Source: a virus
Strand: one strand, 5' to 3'
DNA: 8,355 nucleotides
Virus genome (UHGV): UHGV-0366079
Part shown: positions 1-6,643 of the stretch, one piece after another
Layout of the letters: each line of letters opens with the position of its first letter
Numbering within the stretch: position 1 is the stretch's first letter
Made by a program: the position numbers and the translations under genes
Notes under the pieces: model-generated
What the model saw: only the letters and a program-made list of their open reading frames with translations
The model's database searches: none
What the model was told of the DNA's origin: nothing

Positions 1-40
1 GTCTGCCAAACAAAAGGATTAAGTACCACGAATGGTACAA

Positions 41-78
41 ACGTGCAGTATTACCTACACTGCACGTTCTTTATTGTG
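41..78 (+). terminator. Candidate intrinsic terminator for an upstream plus-strand gene outside the window
   Basis: 9-bp stem acgtgcagt (41-49) / actgcacgt (59-67) with 9-nt loop, followed by T-rich tctttattgtg (68-78). Read by eye, no folding energy computed. Confidence 0.35.
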
Positions 79-110
79 CGGATTTTGAACAGCAACAAAG
101 GATCAAAAGG

Positions 111-539
111 ATGAGTAGAAATAACGAAACAAGCGGCGTTGAACTGGTTGTTGTAGGCGTATTTGCTTTCTGTCTGGCAGTTGTTGCCTGGCTAATGAAA
201 ACTTTCGATGTTGAATGGCAAACAGCACTGGAAACTGCGCCTGGCCTGATAGTCTGGCTGCTTGTTGTCGGTGCGGGGATCTTTTTCGGGATCAAAATGG
301 AAACTGGCCTTATTCGCTGGGGTGCTCCACTGGCGATCGCCCTTCTGATTCCGGTATTCAAGCCAATTCTTAAGGAAGCTGCCGGAGTTCGTGAAACGGG
401 TGGGCTGGTTTTCGATGATATGGTTTCGTGGTATGGAACTGGCTGGGGAATGTCTCTGATGTTCTTCGGGATTCTTATTGTCGGATATGGCCTGCTTTAT
501 GGTGGCACAGAAGAAATTCATATTACTGGTAATCAATAA
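111..539 (+). CDS. Hypothetical small integral membrane protein, 142 aa, about 4 predicted TM helices
   Basis: ATG at 111 with AAAGGA 8 nt upstream. Four hydrophobic stretches (about aa 12-29, 44-61, 70-84, 112-132). First gene of a tight 3-gene cluster. No family recognised. Confidence 0.6.
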   Translation: MSRNNETSGVELVVVGVFAFCLAVVAWLMKTFDVEWQTALETAPGLIVWLLVVGAGIFFGIKMETGLIRWGAPLAIALLIPVFKPILKEAAGVRETGGLVFDDMVSWYGTGWGMSLMFFGILIVGYGLLYGGTEEIHITGNQ

Positions 540-560
540 AACGTAGAAGAGAGGAAACAT

Positions 561-836
561 ATGAAACTGAATCCTGAGAAATACAATAGAAACATTACCC
601 TGCTATGTCCTGTGTGCGGAAATACAGAGATGGAACACGAGGAAGAGTCTGAAGTCGTTAGATGTGTAGGCTGCGGGAAAGAATTTACTAATGATGAGTT
701 AATCCAAGAAAACGGGGTGAGTATTGACGCTCATGTAGATGAAATAAAAGAAGAGTTAACAAAAGACATTCAAAAACAGTTTAACGACATGCTCAAAAAG
801 GCATTTAAGGGAAGTAAGAATATAAGGATCAAATAA
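561..836 (+). CDS. Hypothetical zinc-ribbon protein, 91 aa
   Basis: Strong SD GAGAGGAAA 6 nt before ATG 561. CPVC (aa 16-19) and CVGC (aa 35-38) form a C4 zinc-ribbon signature; charged helical C-terminus. Starts 21 nt after the upstream stop. Confidence 0.6.
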   Translation: MKLNPEKYNRNITLLCPVCGNTEMEHEEESEVVRCVGCGKEFTNDELIQENGVSIDAHVDEIKEELTKDIQKQFNDMLKKAFKGSKNIRIK

Positions 837-1315
837 TGACAACAAGTGATGCCATCGCTTTAGCTGCGCTTGTAGTATCGATTTACACTATCATATCGTC
901 AGAAATGAAATCGAGAAAAAGCGATAGAGAACAAAAGGTTATAAAGGATGAGCAAGACAGGTTACGTAAGTTGCTTCTGGAAAAAGAAACAAAGTCAGCA
1001 ATTAATGAGATGAAAGCTGAGCTTGGTGCTCGCCTCGTAAAAATAGCCAAAAACAACTATAGGCTCAAGATATTTAATAGAGGGAGAGTTGAGGCTAAAA
1101 ATATAGAGATTCATTTCCCTGATAACGATGGAAATGAATATCTTTCAATGCATGATGTAGAAGATAAATTTCCATATGAGGTATTACACCCGCAACATGG
1201 AATTGAAATTTTAGCGGGAATAAGCTTTGGAAGTAAAACTAAATACCGAATAAAACTCATATGGGATGACAATTATAAAAGAAGAAATGAAGAGGAGTTT
1301 TTCATTTCTATATAA
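836..1315 (+). CDS. Hypothetical membrane-anchored protein, 159 aa: N-terminal TM helix, charged coiled-coil-like segment, C-terminal domain
   Basis: ATG 836-838 overlaps the upstream stop TAA 834-836 (TAATG, translational coupling); AAGGA about 10 nt upstream. Hydrophobic aa 5-22, then a K/E/R-rich helix. Visibly AT-rich. No family recognised. Confidence 0.6.
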   Translation: MTTSDAIALAALVVSIYTIISSEMKSRKSDREQKVIKDEQDRLRKLLLEKETKSAINEMKAELGARLVKIAKNNYRLKIFNRGRVEAKNIEIHFPDNDGNEYLSMHDVEDKFPYEVLHPQHGIEILAGISFGSKTKYRIKLIWDDNYKRRNEEEFFISI

Positions 1316-1344
1316 ATTGGTTCGCACAATGACGTTATGCTAAA

Positions 1345-1383
1345 GAGGCCGCTGCGGGATTCGATTTTCGCAGCGGCCTTTTC
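1345..1383. terminator. Rho-independent terminator ending the plus-strand 3-gene operon, possibly bidirectional
   Basis: 11-bp GC-rich stem aggccgctgcg (1346-1356) / cgcagcggcct (1369-1379), 12-nt loop, then TTTT (1379-1382). Sits 30 nt after the stop at 1315. A-rich on the 5' side, so it may also act on the minus strand. Confidence 0.55.
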
Positions 1384-1412
1384 AACATAACGAGTCGTAC
1401 ATTATGCGCACC
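1381..1412 (-). other. dif-like XerC/XerD recombination site with an 11-bp central region (candidate phage att site)
   Basis: Minus strand reads GGTGCGCATAA TGTACGACTCG TTATGTTGAAA. E. coli dif as I recall it is GGTGCGCATAA TGTATA TTATGTTAAAT. XerC arm 11/11, first 4 central nt identical, XerD-like arm 9/11 if a 5-nt longer spacer is allowed. The XerD-like arm abuts the terminator stem. Confidence 0.5.
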
Positions 1413-1450
1413 AATAGTAAGGATGGCGGGAACTGGCGTTACCGGTGCCG

Positions 1451-1684
1451 TCATTGGTCACAGACCGTAATCCACTGGCCCAGGACGTCTTTCAGGCAAT
1501 GTTGGCATAAATCCAGTTTTAAGCGATTACTGTCACCAAAAATTGAACCGTATCCAGCTAAGTGATTAACAGACAGAAACTCATTGAACTCAATGTCATC
1601 TACCACCGTCTTCGCATGGCGACCACAGCGATCGCAGGTCTTCGCACATAACATTACAGTATCGCTGGATGTGAAAAATTGCAT
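1451..1684 (-). CDS. Hypothetical small Cys-rich (putative zinc-binding) protein, 77 aa; phage cargo candidate
   Basis: ATG at 1684..1682 with strong SD GAGGAGA 5 nt upstream. Cys at 13, 17, 20 and CQHC at 61-64 suggest a zinc ribbon. Same strand as the phage genes, downstream of gIV. Confidence 0.6.
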   Translation of the reverse strand: MQFFTSSDTVMLCAKTCDRCGRHAKTVVDDIEFNEFLSVNHLAGYGSIFGDSNRLKLDLCQHCLKDVLGQWITVCDQ

Positions 1685-1755
1685 TTTATCTCCTCGTAAT
1701 GCTGCCGCGCCGAATCAGCAATAACGCTAAAAAAACAGAATTGTTCGGCTTGGCC

Positions 1756-1800
1756 AACCCCTGACACTAACAAAAGCAAGTTTTGTTAGTGTCAGGGGTT
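1756..1800. repeat. Perfect 20-bp inverted repeat with 5-nt loop (hairpin/cruciform); candidate packaging signal, origin hairpin or operator
   Basis: aacccctgacactaacaaaa (1756-1775), loop gcaag, ttttgttagtgtcaggggtt (1781-1800): exact reverse complements. Begins 2 nt after the stop of the 102-aa ORF. The minus-strand T-run lies about 20 nt beyond the stem, so it is not a classical terminator. Confidence 0.8.
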
Positions 1801-1801
1801 A

Positions 1802-2110
1802 TCATATAAACCAATAGACCGTCCTTACGCCATTCTGGTTATCAATAACATAGCCGCATTGTTTCCTTAAAAATTCTTCTGCTAAATCAATGGCTTTTAC
1901 AGAAATCTCATAAGAAGGAAGTAAAGTGTATCCTTTCCCTTCACTGGCAGCTGCTTTGATCGCATCCAGAGTATTATCAATCAGTAACAGAGCAAGTGAT
2001 GCTTCATTTACCTGAGCCGAAGAACTTCTGGCTGCAAGTGTCATTGTTTTTGCTTCTTCCGCTGTAATCGTTCGTTCTGCCAGAGCAGATAAAATCCCAT
2101 AAGAATCCAT
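1802..2110 (-). CDS. Hypothetical protein, 102 aa; phage cargo candidate directly downstream of gIV
   Basis: ATG at 2110..2108 with GGGGT about 6 nt upstream. Helical N-terminal half, beta-like C-terminus. No family recognised. Co-oriented with the phage genes. Confidence 0.55.
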   Translation of the reverse strand: MDSYGILSALAERTITAEEAKTMTLAARSSSAQVNEASLALLLIDNTLDAIKAAASEGKGYTLLPSYEISVKAIDLAEEFLRKQCGYVIDNQNGVRTVYWFI

Positions 2111-2130
2111 TAGTTACCCCAATCAATAAT

Positions 2131-2190
2131 GTCCATTTGATGGATAGCGAGCAGGGCTCACGCACCTACCCGCTATCCATCAAAGTGGAC
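2131..2190 (-). terminator. Large imperfect hairpin at the gIV 3' end; candidate gIV terminator and/or packaging-signal hairpin
   Basis: Arms gtccatttgatggatagcg (2131-2149) and cgctatccatcaaagtggac (2171-2190) pair over 19 bp with one bulged nucleotide; 21-nt loop. Overlaps the gIV stop (2180-2182). In Ff phages the packaging-signal hairpin immediately follows gIV (established knowledge). Confidence 0.4.
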
Positions 2191-3445
2191 GAATGATATG
2201 TGCTGTAAGCAAAATATACATAATACGCTGTTCATTGCTGTCTGCCTTGCTACTGAAAATCCAGCCTATAAGAGGAATTTTACTTATAACTGGAACTGAA
2301 CGCTCGGCATTGCTGAACGATGAATCGATAAGCCCCCCCAATAACAACGTCTGACCATCCTTAATCTGGACTGTCGTCTGAATCTGGCGCTGATTAGTAA
2401 TAATATCGGATGCCTGATCATCATTGCTGATTGAATCAGCGCGAGTGTCGATAGTCAGAACTAGTTGCCCGTTACCCATGACAACAGGCGTTACCTTGAG
2501 AGAAACGCCAACATCATGACGCTCGATAGTCTGAAACGGATTATTTACCCCGGCAGATTCGCCCGTTACCTTTCCGGTGATAAACGGCACATTCTTACCT
2601 ACGGAAATGTAACCAGTCTGACCAGACTGAGTAAGAATACGCGGCGTTGAAATCACCTTAGAGCGTGAATTACTCTGGACAGCACGCAGAGACAGCGCCA
2701 ACACGTTACCATCAAAAATACCAAAAGAACCGCCCGCCGTAGAAAGAGCGCTACCCAGTGCAGAAGTATTAAAGCCCCCCGCAACCTTATGACCGGATGC
2801 AGAACCTGCCGCAAACGATAAATCAACGCCATCAGACAAGCTGGTTTCAAACATCAGCGACTGAATGAGAACCTGATCGCGGGCAACATCCACAGAATTG
2901 ATAAAATCGGACAGAACCGGCAGCAGCTCGTCAGGCGCAGAAACAATCAGCGAGTTATTGCCTGGATAATCCACGACATTACCACCACCATTAGAATCAA
3001 GATAAATTTTAATCAGTTGCTGAACATCGGACGATCTAACTTTTGTCAGCTTAAAATTTCTGACCGTAAGCGCCACAGGTACTGGCTGGTAAGATGGCTC
3101 AGAAGGAAAAGTATCATAAGACTGGTTATCAGAATCATCGGAATCCGAAACCATCTGTGAAGGTAATTTAGACGGCAAAGAGACTACCGCAGGATTGCCA
3201 GAAAGCATGACAAAACCGTTAGCATTCAGAACAGACTTAAAGAAATCATCAATATTTGTTGGATTAACATCAGCATTAAATACGGTTACGTTTCCTTTAA
3301 TATCAGGATTAACAATAACAGGCTTGCCAGTTTTTGAAGAATACCACTGAACAAATGAGCGAACAGATGAATTATTTAAATTAACAGTTTCAGCAGAAAC
3401 GCAGAATGAATAGGCAAATAAAAAAGCAACAATAACAGAGCGCAT
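2180..3445 (-). CDS. IV: Filamentous-phage pIV outer-membrane secretin (virion export channel)
   Basis: Start corrected to ATG 3445 (MRSVIVAFLFAYSFCVSA signal peptide) with AGGAG about 11 nt upstream; the track ORF start 3538 overlaps gI. Collinear with M13 pIV as recalled (NNS..R.FV.WYS, VPFITG.VTGESA.VNNPFQTIER, LLLGGL, SKIPLIG). 421 aa. Confidence 0.9.
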   Translation of the reverse strand: MRSVIVAFLFAYSFCVSAETVNLNNSSVRSFVQWYSSKTGKPVIVNPDIKGNVTVFNADVNPTNIDDFFKSVLNANGFVMLSGNPAVVSLPSKLPSQMVSDSDDSDNQSYDTFPSEPSYQPVPVALTVRNFKLTKVRSSDVQQLIKIYLDSNGGGNVVDYPGNNSLIVSAPDELLPVLSDFINSVDVARDQVLIQSLMFETSLSDGVDLSFAAGSASGHKVAGGFNTSALGSALSTAGGSFGIFDGNVLALSLRAVQSNSRSKVISTPRILTQSGQTGYISVGKNVPFITGKVTGESAGVNNPFQTIERHDVGVSLKVTPVVMGNGQLVLTIDTRADSISNDDQASDIITNQRQIQTTVQIKDGQTLLLGGLIDSSFSNAERSVPVISKIPLIGWIFSSKADSNEQRIMYILLTAHIIRPL

Positions 3446-3452
3446 AATAATA

Positions 3453-3827
3453 TTACTCCTGACAGGTAACAGTCTGTAAATAACGGCCTTTTCTAATAAC
3501 AACACGACAGGCATCTTTAATATCAACGGAATAACCATCTTTAATCAAATCAAAATACTGATATTTCATACCTTTTGCATCAACAAACGTAACGGAAACG
3601 TCAAAGCCAAGTTGTGAAAAAGAATTAATAGAAAGTCGGGGTAAGTCACTGGACGAATCAGGCGTTACCGCCCTCGCCTGTTCAGCATAAGCAGATTTAA
3701 TAGCTGAGATTTCATCAACATTCTTTCCAGACTGGAGCCAGAAACCAAACGCAAGCCCCAGCGCCAAAAAAGAAAGCATTAATATAAGACGGTTCGATTT
3801 GCGAAAATAAATTTTAGTGAGGCGCAT
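3453..3827 (-). CDS. XI: pXI, in-frame internal restart product of gene I (C-terminal 124 aa with the TM segment)
   Basis: Internal ATG at Met241 of pI (MRLTKIYFRK), the same position as pXI in Ff as recalled, with AGAGGA upstream. Expression not provable from sequence. Confidence 0.5.
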   Translation of the reverse strand: MRLTKIYFRKSNRLILMLSFLALGLAFGFWLQSGKNVDEISAIKSAYAEQARAVTPDSSSDLPRLSINSFSQLGFDVSVTFVDAKGMKYQYFDLIKDGYSVDIKDACRVVIRKGRYLQTVTCQE

Positions 3828-4547
3828 ATAATAATTAAATCCTCTGTGAACAGAAAATTGACCGTGCGTGATAAATGGTGGCAAAAGCGAAAATGCGCCA
3901 TGAGGATAATTATCTGTGAACGCTTGTTTGGTATTGTAAGCAGAATAAAGAGATTTTCCTGTATATATCCATTTATCAACAGTGATTGAATTAACATTAT
4001 CACCATATTTGACAATGCCAAAGTGTACCTTTGGTAAAGAAAATCTCGCCCCTGAAACCAAATTCATAATGGAGCCAACAAAAGGAATGTTTAATTTATC
4101 TGAACGGCGACAATAAACAACATGCTCAGCAAGCGCCAGACGAGCTTGCTTATCCATTATCGAAATATCCTGAATCAAAAATATAATATCCCAGCCTAAT
4201 TTTCTGGCATGTAAAAACCAGTCAATAACAGGTTGTCTGTCTTTATCACCCCATGAGCGGGAATTAAACCAAGTACCACATTCATCAAGTACAAGGAGGC
4301 CATTACGGGATTCATCGTAAGATGTATTCCCAATACCAATAGCAAGTAAATCATTTAATGAAGGCTTGTCAGGAATGCGAATAACGCGCGTTTTTTTCGC
4401 ATAACGCCCAACCATAGGCATATTATGCAATTTAAGATCAAGATTAGTGGCAACAGGACAACCCTTAGCAAGTCTTTCCTGTATTCTGGAAACACTAACA
4501 AGTGTCTTGCCTGAGCCTAATTTGCCTGTTACTACATAAACCGCCAT
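3453..4547 (-). CDS. I: Filamentous-phage pI assembly ATPase (Zot-like, Walker A)
   Basis: N-terminus MAVYVVTGKLGSGKTLVSV carries Walker A GxxGSGKT; long blocks match M13 pI as recalled (LLVLDECGTWFN.RSW, RQP.IDWFLHARKLGWDIIFL.QD, ALAEHVVYCRR). One TM segment near aa 254-271. Start abuts the gVI stop (TAAATG). 364 aa. Confidence 0.92.
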   Translation of the reverse strand: MAVYVVTGKLGSGKTLVSVSRIQERLAKGCPVATNLDLKLHNMPMVGRYAKKTRVIRIPDKPSLNDLLAIGIGNTSYDESRNGLLVLDECGTWFNSRSWGDKDRQPVIDWFLHARKLGWDIIFLIQDISIMDKQARLALAEHVVYCRRSDKLNIPFVGSIMNLVSGARFSLPKVHFGIVKYGDNVNSITVDKWIYTGKSLYSAYNTKQAFTDNYPHGAFSLLPPFITHGQFSVHRGFNYYMRLTKIYFRKSNRLILMLSFLALGLAFGFWLQSGKNVDEISAIKSAYAEQARAVTPDSSSDLPRLSINSFSQLGFDVSVTFVDAKGMKYQYFDLIKDGYSVDIKDACRVVIRKGRYLQTVTCQE

Positions 4548-4889
4548 TTAAATCACCCTGTTTGCATAATCAAGAAACTTTTGTTTTAAATCGAAAACAA
4601 AAACACTGATACGAGTAACCATAATAACGTTAACACACGCCTGAAAATGGTCAGGCAATACAGACGCCATTAAATGGGAGAAATCAGCAGGTAAACCGTT
4701 ATACATGACCTCAGCAAGGTACTGCATTAAAAGCGTAACAGTTGTTGTAATTAATGCGACCAATGCAAAGGCGATTAATCCTGTTCTGGTAGCAAGTCGA
4801 GCTAAAAAACTCGCCACATAGCCAATAAACAAAGGAACAAGACCAATAAGAAAACGCAACAATGCAGGAATACCTAATAATAAAGGCAT
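4548..4889 (-). CDS. VI: Filamentous-phage pVI minor coat protein
   Basis: [14 protein letters not shown]... hydrophobic, about 113 aa, similar to M13 pVI as recalled (LLGIP.LLRF, FD.KQK). ATG 4889..4887 overlaps the gIII stop TGA 4891..4889 (TGATG); AAGGGGGTGA RBS upstream. The track start at 4892 is a GTG one codon upstream. Confidence 0.85.
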   Translation of the reverse strand: MPLLLGIPALLRFLIGLVPLFIGYVASFLARLATRTGLIAFALVALITTTVTLLMQYLAEVMYNGLPADFSHLMASVLPDHFQACVNVIMVTRISVFVFDLKQKFLDYANRVI

Positions 4890-6151
4890 CACTCACCCCC
4901 TTTGCGAAGCAATGAAGTTAAAGAAGTAAAGACATACCAGAACGTAAGGCAATAAAAAACCCATGAAAGAACATCTTTAATAGTCAGTAATTTATCGCAA
5001 CCAATATCAATCTGATAAACCTCACCGGGAAAAATAATAAAATCAGAGCAGCCGTTACCATTGGGTAAATTAGGCAGCATAGCACCTTTATTTAAAAACG
5101 CTTCCCATAAAGCACCGTGAGAATCCTTTTCAATTCCCAATTCAGAATCAGCCAAAGTAGAAGCGCCATCTAATTCAGAGTCGCCCTTTCCATAACGAGA
5201 ATCACCACCTGAAGGGTCAGCAAAACGGCCAGCCCCCCGCGTAAGATTGTTAATGGAATCGTCAAGACGATTTATATTATTCCTGGTTTGTTCATCGGCA
5301 TTTTTTTTATCATCTGATGAAGTGTCTTTCTCCGTTAATTTATCATGAATATCGCTGGCTATTTTGGGTGAAGCACCTTCGATCGCAGACTGAATATCAC
5401 CTTTAGAAAGACTGGAACCACTAGAGCCACCGCCAGAACTACCGCCAGAACTACCGCCACCGGACTCACCACCGCCAGACTCACCACCACCGGACTCACC
5501 ACCGCTGGACTCACCACCGCCAGACTCACCACCACCATTTTGGGGGGTTGAGGGTTTATCAGAGGGGTCAGCTACAGCACCTGTAGGCTTCCATGTTGCA
5601 GCGCAAACAGTACCATCACCCTGACAAACAATGACACCAGTAGCCTCATATTCACAGCCGTTATAGTAGATATAGCGACCACCATCATATGAATCAACAT
5701 TATTAAATACACCTTCTTCTGGCGGCTTCGCTTCACAAATTTCTTCTGGTGTCGGGTCAGTAGGTTTTTCATCAGGAACAGAACGCTGAATATTACCAAC
5801 AATATAAGCCGTTAAAGACCAATATTTATCCTTCTGCCCTGGTGAATCGCTGTAAGTACAATCGCCAGTAAAAACAAGACGGAATTCAGAATCAGGCCAG
5901 ATACCCTCATAAGTTGGTTTAATCCGAGTAAATACACTCTGAGCACTGGATTTAGCACCCTGACAAGCGGAGGCCTGCATAGCAGCATCAATATAGTAAA
6001 CCGTTATCTTAGAGCCATCCTGATTGGTTATTTGCTTACTTTCAGCGTAGGCAGAACTTTGATAAGTGGATTTAGTAATGCTTTCCCATGACTCAGCATG
6101 TGAAAAAGGAGAAATGAGGACAGCGGAAAGAATTAATATTTTCCTTCTCAT
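4889..6151 (-). CDS. III: Filamentous-phage pIII adsorption protein: divergent N-terminal domain, N1 (TolA-binding)-like domain, Gly-rich linker, C-terminal membrane anchor
   Basis: Start set at ATG 6151 ([19 protein letters not shown] signal peptide); the track extension to 6295 overlaps gVIII and the terminator. [26 protein letters not shown] resembles M13 N1 (YEGCLWNATGVVVCTGDETQCYGTW); GGGES repeats; C-terminus CDKL...FWYVFTSL resembles M13 CDKI...FMYVFSTF. 420 aa. Confidence 0.85.
5424..5536 (-). repeat. Tandem 15-nt repeats encoding the Gly/Ser/Glu linker (GGGES units) of pIII
   Basis: Plus strand shows iterated ggactcaccaccgcc / agactcaccaccacc units, translating on the minus strand to [39 protein letters not shown]. 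Confidence 0.8.
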
Positions 6152-6160
6152 AGTAACCCG

Positions 6161-6188
6161 CTTTAATAAAGGGGCAACGAGTGCCCCT
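6161..6188 (-). terminator. Intrinsic terminator between gVIII and gIII
   Basis: Minus strand AGGGGCA-CTCGT-TGCCCCT (7-bp GC-rich stem, 5-nt loop) followed by TTTATT, 10 nt after the gVIII stop. Ff phages carry a terminator at this position (established knowledge). Confidence 0.6.
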
Positions 6189-6197
6189 GAGTGAAAT

Positions 6198-6440
6198 TCA
6201 AACCGCTTTTGAAGAGAATTTTTTGAAAATACGAATGGCAAGCCCAGCGCCAACCACAGCAACAACAACAGGCCATACTTTACCAATGAGATCATTTGCC
6301 TGAGTCAACAAAGCATCCATTGCCTGACCTGCATAATCAGTACCACCTGTAGCGCCTTCAGCCGCAAAAGAACTTGCAGAAATAAAAAGCGCAGTTGAAG
6401 CCAGAGCAATTTTATATTTAACAGTAGACAGAATTTTCAT
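6198..6440 (-). CDS. VIII: Filamentous-phage pVIII major coat protein
   Basis: 80-aa precursor: signal peptide ending SSFA with cleavage before AEG, hydrophobic core [15 protein letters not shown], basic C-terminus [11 protein letters not shown] (compare M13 KLFKKFTSKAS). GGAG 9 nt upstream of ATG 6440. Confidence 0.9.
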
Positions 6441-6459
6441 AGGAATAACTCCATTAAGG

Positions 6460-6555
6460 TTACATTAATCGGTCAGAAAATGATTTAAATGAACCGACCG
6501 CATAGAAAAGGGCAAAACCAAAGGTATAAGCCCCGAAGAAATAAACGATATACAT
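6460..6555 (-). CDS. IX: pIX-like minor coat protein, 31 aa
   Basis: MYIVYFFGAYTFGFALFYAVGSFKSFSDRLM: tiny hydrophobic peptide just upstream of gVIII, resembling M13 pIX (32 aa) in size and the RLM motif. ATG 6555..6553 overlaps the gVII stop (TAATG). Confidence 0.6.
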   Translation of the reverse strand: MYIVYFFGAYTFGFALFYAVGSFKSFSDRLM

Positions 6556-6641
6556 TAACGAAAGACCCCCGCAGTAATCGCGCCGAGGCCAAAAGAAATA
6601 ACGATGCCAGACGCTATCAAAATTTGAATAACATCGTCCAT
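6555..6641 (-). CDS. VII: pVII-like minor coat protein, 28 aa (absent from the ORF track; found by hand translation)
   Basis: ATG 6641..6639 lies 2 nt after the gV-position stop; encodes MDDVIQILIASGIVISFGLGAITAGVFR, a single hydrophobic helix; stop TAA 6557..6555 overlaps the gIX start. Position and size match Ff gVII (33 aa). Confidence 0.55.
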   Translation of the reverse strand: MDDVIQILIASGIVISFGLGAITAGVFR

Positions 6642-6643
6642 AT

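What the first reader, a model, noticed from the sequence alone, without database searches (positions are those of the whole stretch)
111..1315. Convergent 3-gene operon (4-TM protein, zinc-ribbon protein, TM/coiled-coil protein) of unknown function
Three tightly packed plus-strand genes (21-nt gap, then a TAATG overlap) with good ribosome-binding sites sit between two terminators, convergent to the phage genes and just beyond the dif-like site. None resembles a family I can name. Small membrane protein plus zinc-ribbon plus membrane-anchored coiled-coil protein is a composition seen in abortive-infection, superinfection-exclusion and toxin modules. The last gene is markedly AT-rich, suggesting horizontal acquisition. 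The module is either cargo of the element or host DNA beside the integration site.
Basis: inference. Interest (0 to 1): 0.65.

Follow-up and report, generated by a model that had tools for sequence, protein, structure and literature searches.

The report
Filamentous-phage cargo slot holding uncharacterised gene pair
The three genes are real and belong to a filamentous E. coli prophage, but they are two units: a phage membrane-protein gene, followed by a swappable cargo slot that here holds a widespread, unstudied two-gene module that looks like a candidate anti-phage defence system.

Summary
The three ORFs exist exactly as described: A 111-539, B 561-836, C 836-1315. The window is one circularly permuted unit of a CUS-1/YpfPhi-like inovirus that integrates at dif beside hipBA. 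The trio therefore belongs to the phage. It lies downstream of the phage regulator gene and ends at a folded XerC/XerD attP hairpin.

The trio is not one functional unit. Gene A (4 TM helices, frameshifted at its C-terminus in this copy) accompanies these inoviruses whatever follows it. The stretch between A and the hairpin is a variable slot, empty in some phages. In others it holds an AbiJ-like protein, a CAP12/Pycsar-type TIR protein or a DpnII/MboI-type nuclease protein.

B+C form an independent pair. B directly precedes C in 43 of 44 occurrences across Proteobacteria. The pair also sits on plasmids and in chromosomal defence islands, next to Gabija, type I R-M, SIR2-STAND and CBASS-like genes. 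The C family has about 1,280 clusters and no Pfam, PADLOC or PDB match.

C is a membrane-anchored cytoplasmic beta-sandwich protein. B is a zinc-ribbon protein with a conserved tail.

Best reading: a new candidate defence or abortive-infection pair. Function is inferred, not shown. A toxin-antitoxin role is the main rival.

The parts
8195..8355 (+). 5' part of the 60-aa regulator-position gene (WP_001335098). It runs off the window end and continues at 1..22.
   Evidence: The translation across the junction is identical to the annotated 60-aa protein of L001. A promoter-like site lies at 8134-8161. There is no Pfam hit. A CI-like HTH_3 regulator occupies the same position in sister phages.
1..22 (+). 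3' end and stop codon of the 60-aa regulator-position gene.
   Evidence: In tandem arrays window 8355 is followed directly by window 1.
40..75 (+). Terminator-like hairpin (stem 40-49/59-68) plus a U-rich run, between the regulator gene and A.
   Evidence: RNA fold -24.2 kcal/mol, z -3.0. No sigma-70-like promoter was found in 1..110.
111..539 (+). Gene A: four-TM inner-membrane protein (phrog_4174). It is conserved in these inoviruses next to the regulator gene. In this copy its last 10 residues are replaced by a frameshift at about 500/501.
   Evidence: It sits beside the regulator in every inovirus locus examined, whatever follows it.
561..836 (+). Gene B: 91-aa cytoplasmic zinc-ribbon protein with a long helix and a conserved C-terminal tail, AFKGSKNIRIK.
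   Evidence: NF047912 scores 65.2 bits against a cut-off of 37. Alignment A2. AF2 pLDDT 80. It lies directly upstream of C in 43 of 44 occurrences.
836..1315 (+). Gene C: 159-aa protein with an N-terminal TM anchor (N-out/C-in), a charged helical stalk to residue 59 and a cytoplasmic Ig-like beta-sandwich (63-158).
   Evidence: phrog_6723 1e-96. AF2 pLDDT 83. Positive-inside rule met in 170 of 170 members. 1,281 family clusters. No Pfam, PADLOC or PDB match.
1343..1383 (+). Intrinsic terminator of the regulator-A-B-C arm (GC-rich stem plus UUUUC). It forms the top of the attP hairpin.
   Evidence: RNA fold -39.8 kcal/mol, z -6.7. Inverted repeat I1.
1316..1415 (-). Folded attP. As ssDNA, a hairpin of about 100 nt pairs a dif-identical XerC arm (GGTGCGCATAA, 1402-1412 reverse complement) and a XerD-like arm (TTATGTTGAAA, 1380-1390 reverse complement) with degenerate partners at 1319-1331 and 1335-1345. 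It marks the end of the cargo slot.
   Evidence: DNA fold -31.2 kcal/mol, z -7.3. YpfPhi is described as having inverted XerC/XerD sites like CTXphi (PMC4266046). The hairpin is kept at the slot end in 25 loci.
1451..8067 (-). Inovirus core, given as context: two small unknown ORFs, secretin pIV, Zot/pI, pVI-like, pIII-like, major coat, ssDNA-binding protein and the pII replication protein.
   Evidence: ORFs. RefSeq annotation of near-identical prophages.

Best explanation
The window is one unit of a temperate filamentous phage of the CUS-1/YpfPhi kind. It integrates at the chromosomal dif site through a folded XerC/XerD attP.

The arm that diverges from the replication gene reads: regulator-position gene, gene A, a variable cargo slot, then the attP/terminator hairpin. 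Gene A is a conserved four-TM protein of this phage lineage. Its function is unknown; superinfection exclusion is a guess.

B and C are the cargo in this phage. They form a self-contained, translationally coupled pair that also moves among plasmids and chromosomal defence islands across Proteobacteria.

Proposed mechanism (inferred):
1. The pair is made from the prophage.
2. C sits in the inner membrane with its stalk and Ig-like domain in the cytoplasm.
3. B, a cytoplasmic zinc-ribbon protein, docks on C through its conserved C-terminal tail and acts as the sensor or regulator.
4. On infection by another phage, the complex either opens or perturbs the membrane (abortive infection) or blocks DNA entry at the membrane.
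Either outcome would protect the lysogen population and the resident prophage.

Shown: gene reality, phage membership, modularity, the strict B-C pairing, topology, folds and contexts. Inferred: expression from the prophage, B-C binding, and any anti-phage activity.
For: Phage membership:
- Tandem duplication with the prophage next to hipBA.
- The window end joins the window start.
- The attP hairpin carries a dif-identical XerC arm.
- The literature describes CUS-1/YpfPhi integration at dif, tandem arrays and unknown ORFs next to the regulator.

Modularity:
- A occurs alone with other cargo in about 100 E. coli genomes.
- B-C occur without A on Serratia, Enterobacter, Pantoea and Klebsiella plasmids and on chromosomes.

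Variable slot:
- The distance from the A stop to the hairpin is 38-1,286 bp, with about 10 alternative contents and two empty slots.
- Three of the alternatives carry defence-type domains: AbiJ_NTD4+DUF7014 (8.6e-27 / 1.1e-77), CAP12/Pycsar TIR (2.3e-19) and DpnII-MboI REase (6.9e-59).

Pair conservation:
- B lies directly upstream of C in 43 of 44 occurrences.
- The stop and start overlap by 1 or 4 nt in 15 of 24 loci.

Contexts of the pair:
- SIR2-STAND, type I R-M and AAA_13.
- BrxR, type I R-M and Mrr.
- CBASS-like genes, a TIR protein and a TA system.
- Census of 134 neighbouring genes: integrases, resolvases, GajA/GajB, OLD/AriA/PtuA-type ATPases, RnlAB and SLATT.

Proteins:
- C is N-out/C-in in 170 of 170 members.
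- C is a helix followed by a beta-sandwich, with no catalytic motif.
- B's tail is its most conserved part yet has low model confidence, as docking motifs often do.

Precedent: filamentous prophages at dif in Vibrio have a border hot spot beside a regulator, enriched for defence genes.
Against: - There are no functional data of any kind.
- C and A have no hit in PADLOC-DB. B matches only through its zinc ribbon.
- The defence-island association is qualitative. No background control was run.
- Toxin-antitoxin modules show the same contexts and the same gene overlap.
- A terminator-like hairpin lies between the regulator gene and A, and no promoter was detected before A. Expression in the lysogen is therefore unproven.
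- No sequenced phage isolate in INPHARED carries B or C.
Confidence: 0.45

Rival explanations
1. B-C is a toxin-antitoxin (addiction) module whose main role is to stabilise the mobile elements that carry it: the inovirus, which is easily lost, and plasmids. C would be a membrane-acting toxin and B its antitoxin. This role could coexist with phage defence.
For: - Two small adjacent genes, often with overlapping stop and start codons.
- The carriers are plasmids, prophages and islands next to TacAT, ParDE and RelE modules.
- Inoviruses commonly carry TA pairs.
- YpfPhi is unstable as an episome.
- B has weak similarity to MqsA/YgiT-type zinc fingers (below cut-off).
Against: - B is more conserved than C in 15 of 16 distant loci (42.7% against 32.9% identity). 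This is the opposite of the usual pattern, in which the antitoxin evolves faster.
- C has no known toxin domain. At 159 aa with a folded cytoplasmic domain, it is unlike small membrane toxins.
- In E. coli F11 a C-like gene occurs without B.
- The same slot in sister phages holds Abi-, TIR- and nuclease-type defence proteins rather than classical TA pairs.
Confidence: 0.25
2. A, B and C work together as one three-part membrane system, for example superinfection exclusion against other filamentous phages.
For: - The three genes are tightly packed on one strand between two hairpins.
- The A-B-C order recurs in E. coli, Pectobacterium and Izhakiella.
- YpfPhi lysogens are partly protected from superinfection.
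Against: - A is found with at least 10 other cargos, or none.
- B-C are found without A in 30 or more loci of many genera.
- GC content differs: A 47% against B-C 35-37%.
- In this copy A is frameshifted while B-C are intact.
Confidence: 0.08
3. B-C serve the element or the host in a way unrelated to conflict with phages, for example envelope or stress physiology, fitness during infection, or control of virion secretion.
For: - CUS-1 and YpfPhi give modest fitness advantages in animal models, and the unknown end ORFs are suspected to be responsible.
- C is a non-enzymatic membrane protein.
Against: - The pair occurs in environmental Pseudomonas, Caulobacter, Sphingomonas and marine taxa with no link to virulence or inoviruses.
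- Its neighbours are defence and mobility genes rather than envelope or stress genes.
- Phages with an empty slot exist, so the pair is not needed for the phage life cycle.
Confidence: 0.12

Closest known systems
Accessory-gene hot spot of dif-integrated filamentous prophages in Vibrio (PMC11630473)
   Same: - Small filamentous prophages integrated at dif.
- A variable locus close to the prophage border, often flanked by a transcriptional regulator.
- Enrichment for defence and TA genes, most of them unannotated.
   Different: - A different host family (Enterobacterales) and phage lineage.
- Here the slot is bounded by a specific conserved 4-TM gene (A) and the attP hairpin.
- The B-C pair is not among the systems reported there, as far as the text read shows.
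CUS-1 (E. coli O18:K1:H7) and YpfPhi (Yersinia pestis) prophages (PMC4266046)
   Same: - Integration at dif, tandem arrays and inverted XerC/XerD sites.
- An arm with a regulator gene and unknown ORFs ('orf1/orf1a' in CUS-1, YPO2271/2272 in YpfPhi) at the attL side.
- UTI89's prophage carries an A homologue at 94% DNA identity.
   Different: - The window's morphogenesis genes differ from those of UTI89 (DUF5455/attachment protein against DUF2523/GspD annotation).
- The regulator is a 60-aa protein, not the HTH type.
- The cargo is B-C, not the 374-aa protein.
- The original CUS-1 paper could not be read.
Phage lambda cI-rexA-rexB (own knowledge)
   Same: - A prophage arm carrying the repressor, followed by genes for a membrane protein and a cytoplasmic partner.
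- Those genes exclude other phages by membrane depolarisation. This is the best functional analogy for position and proposed action.
   Different: - No sequence or fold similarity was found.
- RexB has four TM helices and no beta-sandwich.
- RexA is not a zinc-ribbon protein.
- Co-transcription with the regulator is not shown here.
P2/P4 hot spots of antiviral systems in E. coli (PMC9122126)
   Same: - A fixed position in a temperate element where unrelated defence systems replace one another between close relatives.
- Many of those systems were first seen as unknown small operons.
   Different: - Tailed phages and their satellites, not inoviruses.
- B-C are not in PADLOC-DB v2.0.0 (2023): no hit.
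NCBIfam NF047912, 'ECs_2282 family putative zinc-binding protein'
   Same: B passes the curated cut-off (65.2 bits against 37). RefSeq gives B this name.
   Different: - The model covers only the 60-residue zinc ribbon.
- ECs_2282 itself (66 aa, lambdoid prophage Sp12) lacks B's helix and conserved tail.
- ECs_2282 has no C-like neighbour.

Membership tests
NCBIfam NF047912 ECs_2282_CxxC (for B) | Score at or above the curated cut-off of the family model. | tested here: met
   65.2 bits against a cut-off of 37. B residues 12-65 align to profile positions 1-60.
NCBIfam NF047912 ECs_2282_CxxC (for B) | Same full-length architecture and context as the name-giving protein. | tested here: not met
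   ECs_2282 is 66 aa, scores only 18.5 bits on the B profile, lacks the helix and tail, and has no C-like gene beside it.
PHROG families 4174 (A), 4852 (B), 6723 (C) | Significant full-length match to the family profile. | tested here: met
   A 2.8e-77 (1-130 of 140). C 9.6e-97 (1-159 of 159). B 8.1e-18 but covers only 1-82 of a 194-position profile. All three are 'unknown function'.
Known or candidate anti-phage systems in PADLOC-DB v2.0.0 | Match of the component proteins to a system's models. | tested here: not met
   A and C have no hit at E up to 1. B matches only locally through its zinc ribbon: PDC-S64 4.3e-7, HEC-08, Cas12f TNB.
Candidate defence system by genomic association | Recurrent location in defence islands or hot spots, next to known systems. 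| tested here: met
   - The slot alternates with AbiJ-like, CAP12-type TIR and REase proteins.
- Neighbours elsewhere include SIR2-STAND, type I R-M, BrxR, Mrr, Gabija, OLD/PARIS-type ATPases and CBASS-like genes.
- No background control was run.
Candidate defence system by genomic association | Protection against phage infection when expressed. | not testable with these tools
   This needs plaque and infection assays.
Type II toxin-antitoxin module | Two small adjacent co-oriented genes, usually overlapping. | tested here: met
   B and C are adjacent in 43 of 44 cases. The overlap is 1 or 4 nt in 15 of 24 loci.
Type II toxin-antitoxin module | A recognisable toxin or antitoxin domain. Usually the antitoxin is the less conserved partner. 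| tested here: not met
   - No toxin or antitoxin family reaches its cut-off. MqsA-type TIGR03830 scores 18.9 bits against a cut-off of 61.8.
- B is more conserved than C in 15 of 16 distant loci.
Type II toxin-antitoxin module | Toxicity of one partner, neutralised by the other. | not testable with these tools
   This needs expression experiments.
Lambda RexAB-type exclusion system | Homology to RexA or RexB. | tested here: not met
   No Pfam or NCBIfam hit to Rex families for A, B or C. Fold search of C gives generic Ig-like folds only.
Holin | Significant match to a holin family and location in a lysis cassette. | tested here: not met
   The only hit is phrog_1350 at E 0.003 over the TM-and-helix part of C. 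There are no lysis genes, and inoviruses do not lyse the cell.
dif-integrating (CUS-1/YpfPhi/CTXphi-type) inovirus (the surrounding element) | Inovirus core genes, no integrase, a folded XerC/XerD attP, insertion at dif, tandem copies. | tested here: met
   - Core genes.
- Insertion next to hipBA in several strains, and a tandem array.
- attP hairpin with a dif-identical XerC arm.
- That dif lies beside hipBA in E. coli is own knowledge.

The most novel reading that the evidence does not exclude
B-C is a previously unrecognised, widespread two-gene anti-phage system. The C family has about 1,280 clusters across Proteobacteria. A membrane-anchored cytoplasmic Ig-like protein is controlled by a small zinc-ribbon sensor. 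E. coli dif-inoviruses carry a defined defence hot spot, bounded by gene A and the attP hairpin, that shuttles such systems between strains, plasmids and chromosomes.
Probability: 0.4. Interest if true: 0.65.

Novelty: new variant of a known kind. Interest (0 to 1): 0.5.

Why it matters
If B-C protect against phages, they add a new protein architecture to bacterial immunity: a non-enzymatic membrane effector with an Ig-like cytoplasmic domain, plus a zinc-ribbon partner. The family is large enough to matter in many Proteobacteria.

The analysis also shows that CUS-1-like filamentous prophages of pathogenic E. coli, including the ST131 and O18:K1 lineages, have a precisely bounded cargo slot that exchanges Abi-, TIR- and nuclease-type genes. 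This extends to Enterobacterales what was recently described in Vibrio. It also offers a concrete explanation for the long-unexplained 'end ORFs' of CUS-1 and YpfPhi, phages linked to virulence clones.

The slot is easy to mine for further systems. The element is small enough to engineer.

Tried and rejected
- Pfam, NCBIfam, PADLOC and PHROG scans of A, B and C gave no functional name beyond a zinc ribbon.
- The afdb50 fold library was unavailable.
- PDB profile searches found zinc ribbons only for B and nothing for C.
- tblastn of B and C against 50,697 phage records found no match.
- Rfam found nothing in the window.
- I guessed that puvA, the CUS-1 virulence gene, might be one of the trio. 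This is rejected: the review identifies puvA as the receptor-binding virion protein.
- I looked for a universal third gene next to B-C and found none. There is only an occasional 123-127-aa partner, and an ISNCY transposase on four plasmids.
- I checked the gap beside ECs_2282 for a C-like remnant and found none.
- I guessed that the 60-aa regulator-position protein is a ribbon-helix-helix protein. No Pfam match supports this.
- The broad alignment A3 was too diverse for a locus scan.
- The original CUS-1 paper is not held.
- Literature searches by accession and by description found nothing on the pair.
Full report
**1. Observation**

The A-B gap is 21 nt, and the B stop and C start share one base, TAATG. 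Each start has a purine-rich ribosome-binding site 6-8 nt upstream (read).

The genes are real:
- A, B and C match PHROG families 4174, 4852 and 6723 at 2.8e-77, 8e-18 and 1e-96. All three families are of unknown function.
- Each has length-conserved homologues.

GC content is 47% for A, 37% for B and 35% for C, against 41% for the phage core. So B as well as C is AT-rich.

One correction concerns A. In this copy a 1-nt deletion at about 500/501 replaces the family's C-terminal WWHRRNSYYW with GGTEEIHITGNQ. RefSeq marks the identical copy in strain TUM13936 as frameshifted.

**2. Where the trio sits**

The rest of the window is an inovirus on the minus strand, with pII, ssDNA-binding protein, coat, pIII-like, pVI-like, Zot/pI and secretin genes.

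The window is exactly one circularly permuted genome unit:
- A gene starting at 8195 runs off the end and continues in frame at 1..22. Its product is the 60-aa protein annotated in E. coli prophages.
- In a tandem two-copy prophage (strain 20Y000092), window position 8355 is followed directly by position 1. The same is true in an IMG/VR contig.

The prophage lies beside hipBA, which is where E. coli dif lies (own knowledge). This matches published CUS-1 and YpfPhi biology: integration at dif, tandem arrays, inverted XerC/XerD sites, and unknown ORFs next to an RstR-like regulator at the attL side (PMC4266046).

The trio is therefore phage DNA, not host DNA. The 'convergent' look comes from where the circle was cut. 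In the genome the order is: regulator-position gene, A, B, C, attP. This arm diverges from the replication gene.

**3. The two hairpins**

The first hairpin, at 40-68 plus a U-rich run, lies between the regulator gene and A (z -3.0). No sigma-70-like promoter was detected before A. Expression of A-B-C by read-through is therefore possible but unproven.

The second hairpin lies downstream of C. A GC-rich stem at 1343-1382 followed by UUUUC is a strong intrinsic terminator in RNA (-39.8 kcal/mol, z -6.7).

The same sequence is the top of a hairpin of about 100 nt, 1316-1415. As ssDNA this hairpin (-31.2 kcal/mol, z -7.3) pairs two sets of arms:
- GGTGCGCATAA, identical to the XerC arm of dif (own knowledge of the dif sequence), with a degenerate copy.
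- TTATGTTGAAA, XerD-like, with its partner.

This is the CTXphi-type folded attP that the YpfPhi review describes. It marks the physical end of the arm.

**4. The trio is two units**

Gene A alone:
- It is found at 93-96% DNA identity in about 100 more E. coli genomes, including UTI89, and in 23 viral contigs.
- It always follows the regulator-position gene, whether that gene is the 60-aa type, a CI-like HTH_3 type or two small genes in Yersinia.

The segment between the A stop and the conserved hairpin is a variable slot of 38 to 1,286 bp. After clustering, its contents are:

| Cargo | Evidence |
|---|---|
| B+C | 10 loci |
| C-like 155-aa protein plus a 123-aa protein, no B | E. coli F11 and two other loci |
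| 363-374-aa TM protein | UTI89 type |
| 264-aa DpnII/MboI REase-domain protein plus DUF6953 | 6.9e-59; PADLOC Aga_Helical-REase 1.3e-34 |
| 309-aa AbiJ_NTD4+DUF7014 protein | 8.6e-27 / 1.1e-77 |
| 368-aa CAP12/Pycsar-type TIR protein | 2.3e-19; PADLOC TIR effector 1.4e-11 |
| Several unknown genes | |
| Nothing | L073, L074 |

The cargo is therefore dispensable for the phage. The slot behaves like the defence hot spots of P2/P4 (PMC9122126) and of Vibrio filamentous prophages (PMC11630473).

**5. B-C as an independent pair**

B+C occur without A in these places:
- Serratia, Enterobacter, Pantoea and Klebsiella plasmids.
- Proteus.
- 28 loci from a scan of GTDB genomes, spanning Enterobacterales, Pseudomonas, Xanthomonas, Stenotrophomonas, Caulobacter, Sphingomonas, Rhodobacteraceae, Marinobacter, Halomonas and a Bdellovibrionales MAG.

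With profile HMMs, a B homologue lies directly upstream of C in 43 of 44 C occurrences. The stop and start overlap by 1 or 4 nt in 15 of 24 loci, which suggests translational coupling. No third gene recurs universally.

A profile search of 1.84 billion representative proteins found 1,281 C-family clusters at E up to 1e-3 and 471 at E up to 1e-10. Nearly all are 145-160 aa.

Contexts of the pair:
- SIR2-STAND NTPase, type I R-M and AAA_13.
- BrxR, type I R-M and Mrr, beside an AlpA/DUF3987 element.
- An S-4TM effector, a nucleotidyltransferase, a TIR protein and a GNAT TA module.
- RelE/ParE and an Abi protein.
- NACHT, TacAT and ParDE.

A census of 134 genes within 3.3 kb of the pair in 23 further loci returned:
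- 5 integrases, 3 resolvases and MobA.
- 3 AAA_15/AAA_21 ATPases matching AriA, PtuA and OLD-type models.
- GajA+GajB at two loci (down to 6e-165).
- RnlA/RnlB at two loci.
- SLATT_4, AGS_C and DNA methyltransferases.

This is a defence-island and mobile-element signature. I ran no background control.

**6. The proteins**

*C.* AF2 (pLDDT 83) gives one long helix, residues 3-59, and a beta-sandwich of seven or eight strands, residues 63-158.
- The first ~20 residues are hydrophobic.
- In 170 of 170 family members, K+R are enriched after the TM helix rather than before it (3.9 against 0.06). So the N-terminus is outside, and the stalk (41% charged residues) and sandwich are cytoplasmic.
- Invariant positions are N81 and G83. 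Near-invariant positions include P113, W143 and D145. No catalytic motif is evident.
- There is no PDB sequence relative.

*B.* It has a CPxCG...CxxC zinc ribbon, a DELIQENG motif, a helix at 52-83 and a C-terminal tail, AFKGSKNIRIK.
- The tail is the most conserved part of the protein, yet it has low model confidence. This pattern is typical of a motif that becomes ordered on a partner (inference).
- B passes the NCBIfam ECs_2282 zinc-ribbon model.
- ECs_2282 itself is a 66-aa protein of a lambdoid prophage. It lacks the helix and tail and has no C-like neighbour.
- B is more conserved than C in 15 of 16 distant loci (42.7% against 32.9% identity).

**7. Interpretation**

Best-supported reading: A is a conserved membrane protein of this inovirus lineage. 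B-C are interchangeable cargo, a new candidate defence or abortive-infection pair that acts at the cytoplasmic face of the inner membrane. In this reading B is the sensor or regulator, docked on C through its tail, and C is the membrane effector or blocker.

The closest functional analogy is lambda cI-rexA-rexB (own knowledge). No homology supports membership of that family.

The main rival is a toxin-antitoxin addiction module.
- In favour: gene overlap and carriage on mobile elements.
- Against: the upstream partner is the more conserved one, no toxin domain is present, a B-less C-like variant exists, and the neighbouring cargos are of defence type.
- The two roles are not exclusive.

A single three-part A-B-C system is unlikely, given the modularity shown above.

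**8. Novelty**

The architecture is known from Vibrio: a filamentous prophage at dif with a border hot spot enriched for defence genes. It is analogous to the P2/P4 hot spots. I found no report of it for E. coli CUS-1-like phages, and none of the B-C pair.

The pair has no match in PADLOC-DB v2.0.0, Pfam or the PDB. I rate it a new variant of a known kind, of moderate interest, pending any functional test.

Noticed in passing
window 8195-8355 joined to 1-22: The window is exactly one circularly permuted phage genome unit. A 60-aa gene in the regulator position spans the cut. In tandem prophages position 8355 is followed directly by position 1.
   Followed up: yes
window ~500/501 (gene A): A 1-nt deletion relative to all homologues changes the last 10 residues of A. 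The normal ending is visible in the alternative frame (ORF 428..532). It could be a real mutation or a sequencing error. The identical copy in strain TUM13936 is flagged 'frameshifted'.
   Followed up: yes
window 1316-1408; e.g. L052:3501-3593: The 93-nt attP/terminator hairpin occurs at 90-99% identity on 441 plasmids, 393 of them conjugative and mostly from E. coli or Klebsiella. It is usually unannotated. In pINF078-VP it sits next to a relative of the F11 123-aa cargo protein (similarity judged by eye only) and an HTH gene, and the match ends at the XerC arm. These are probably inovirus remnants at plasmid Xer sites.
   Followed up: partly
L021:4535-5419 (E. coli F11); L009:8517-8900: A variant cargo: a C-family protein (155 aa) without B, followed by a 123-aa protein with no zinc ribbon. 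A homologue of that 123-aa protein lies just downstream of B-C on Klebsiella plasmids. It may be an alternative or additional partner of C.
   Followed up: partly
L004:10516-11640 (UTI89 cargo): The CUS-1-type 374-aa cargo protein also starts with a TM helix followed by a TVTNKGKEKEKNVTITIP strand motif. This resembles LKIFNRGRVEAKNIEIHFP in C, although BLAST finds no similarity between the two proteins. A shared TM plus Ig-like design was not tested.
   Followed up: no
window 5408-5542: There are seven 15-nt tandem repeats coding for Gly/Ser-rich linker in the pIII-like gene. Repeat-number differences probably account for most of the 41-nt size difference between this unit and the 8,314-bp unit of strain 20Y000092 (not checked directly).
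   Followed up: partly
window 1451-1684 and 1802-2110 (minus strand): Two small unknown ORFs lie at the other prophage end, in the position of YPO2280a/YPO2281. One is a Cys-rich 77-aa protein (phrog_5435) and the other a 102-aa protein (phrog_4115). Perfect or near-perfect inverted repeats lie at 1756-1800 and 2136-2184 beside them.
   Followed up: no
L024, L043: A contig 100% identical to the window over gene C is filed under a 'Candidatus Nanosynbacter' MAG. A B-C locus is filed under a 'Methanoculleus' MAG. Both are probably binning errors, so the taxon labels of these records should not be trusted.
   Followed up: no
L005, L006, L009, L028 (upstream of B): An ISNCY-family transposase gene lies about 100-130 nt upstream of B-C on four enterobacterial plasmids or contigs. 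This suggests one way the pair spreads.
   Followed up: no
L003/L004 compared with L001/L002: The same regulator-A-cargo arm (about 96% identity) is joined to two different morphogenesis modules, annotated DUF2523/GspD and DUF5455/attachment protein/secretin. This indicates recombination between inovirus lineages at the replication/regulation region.
   Followed up: partly
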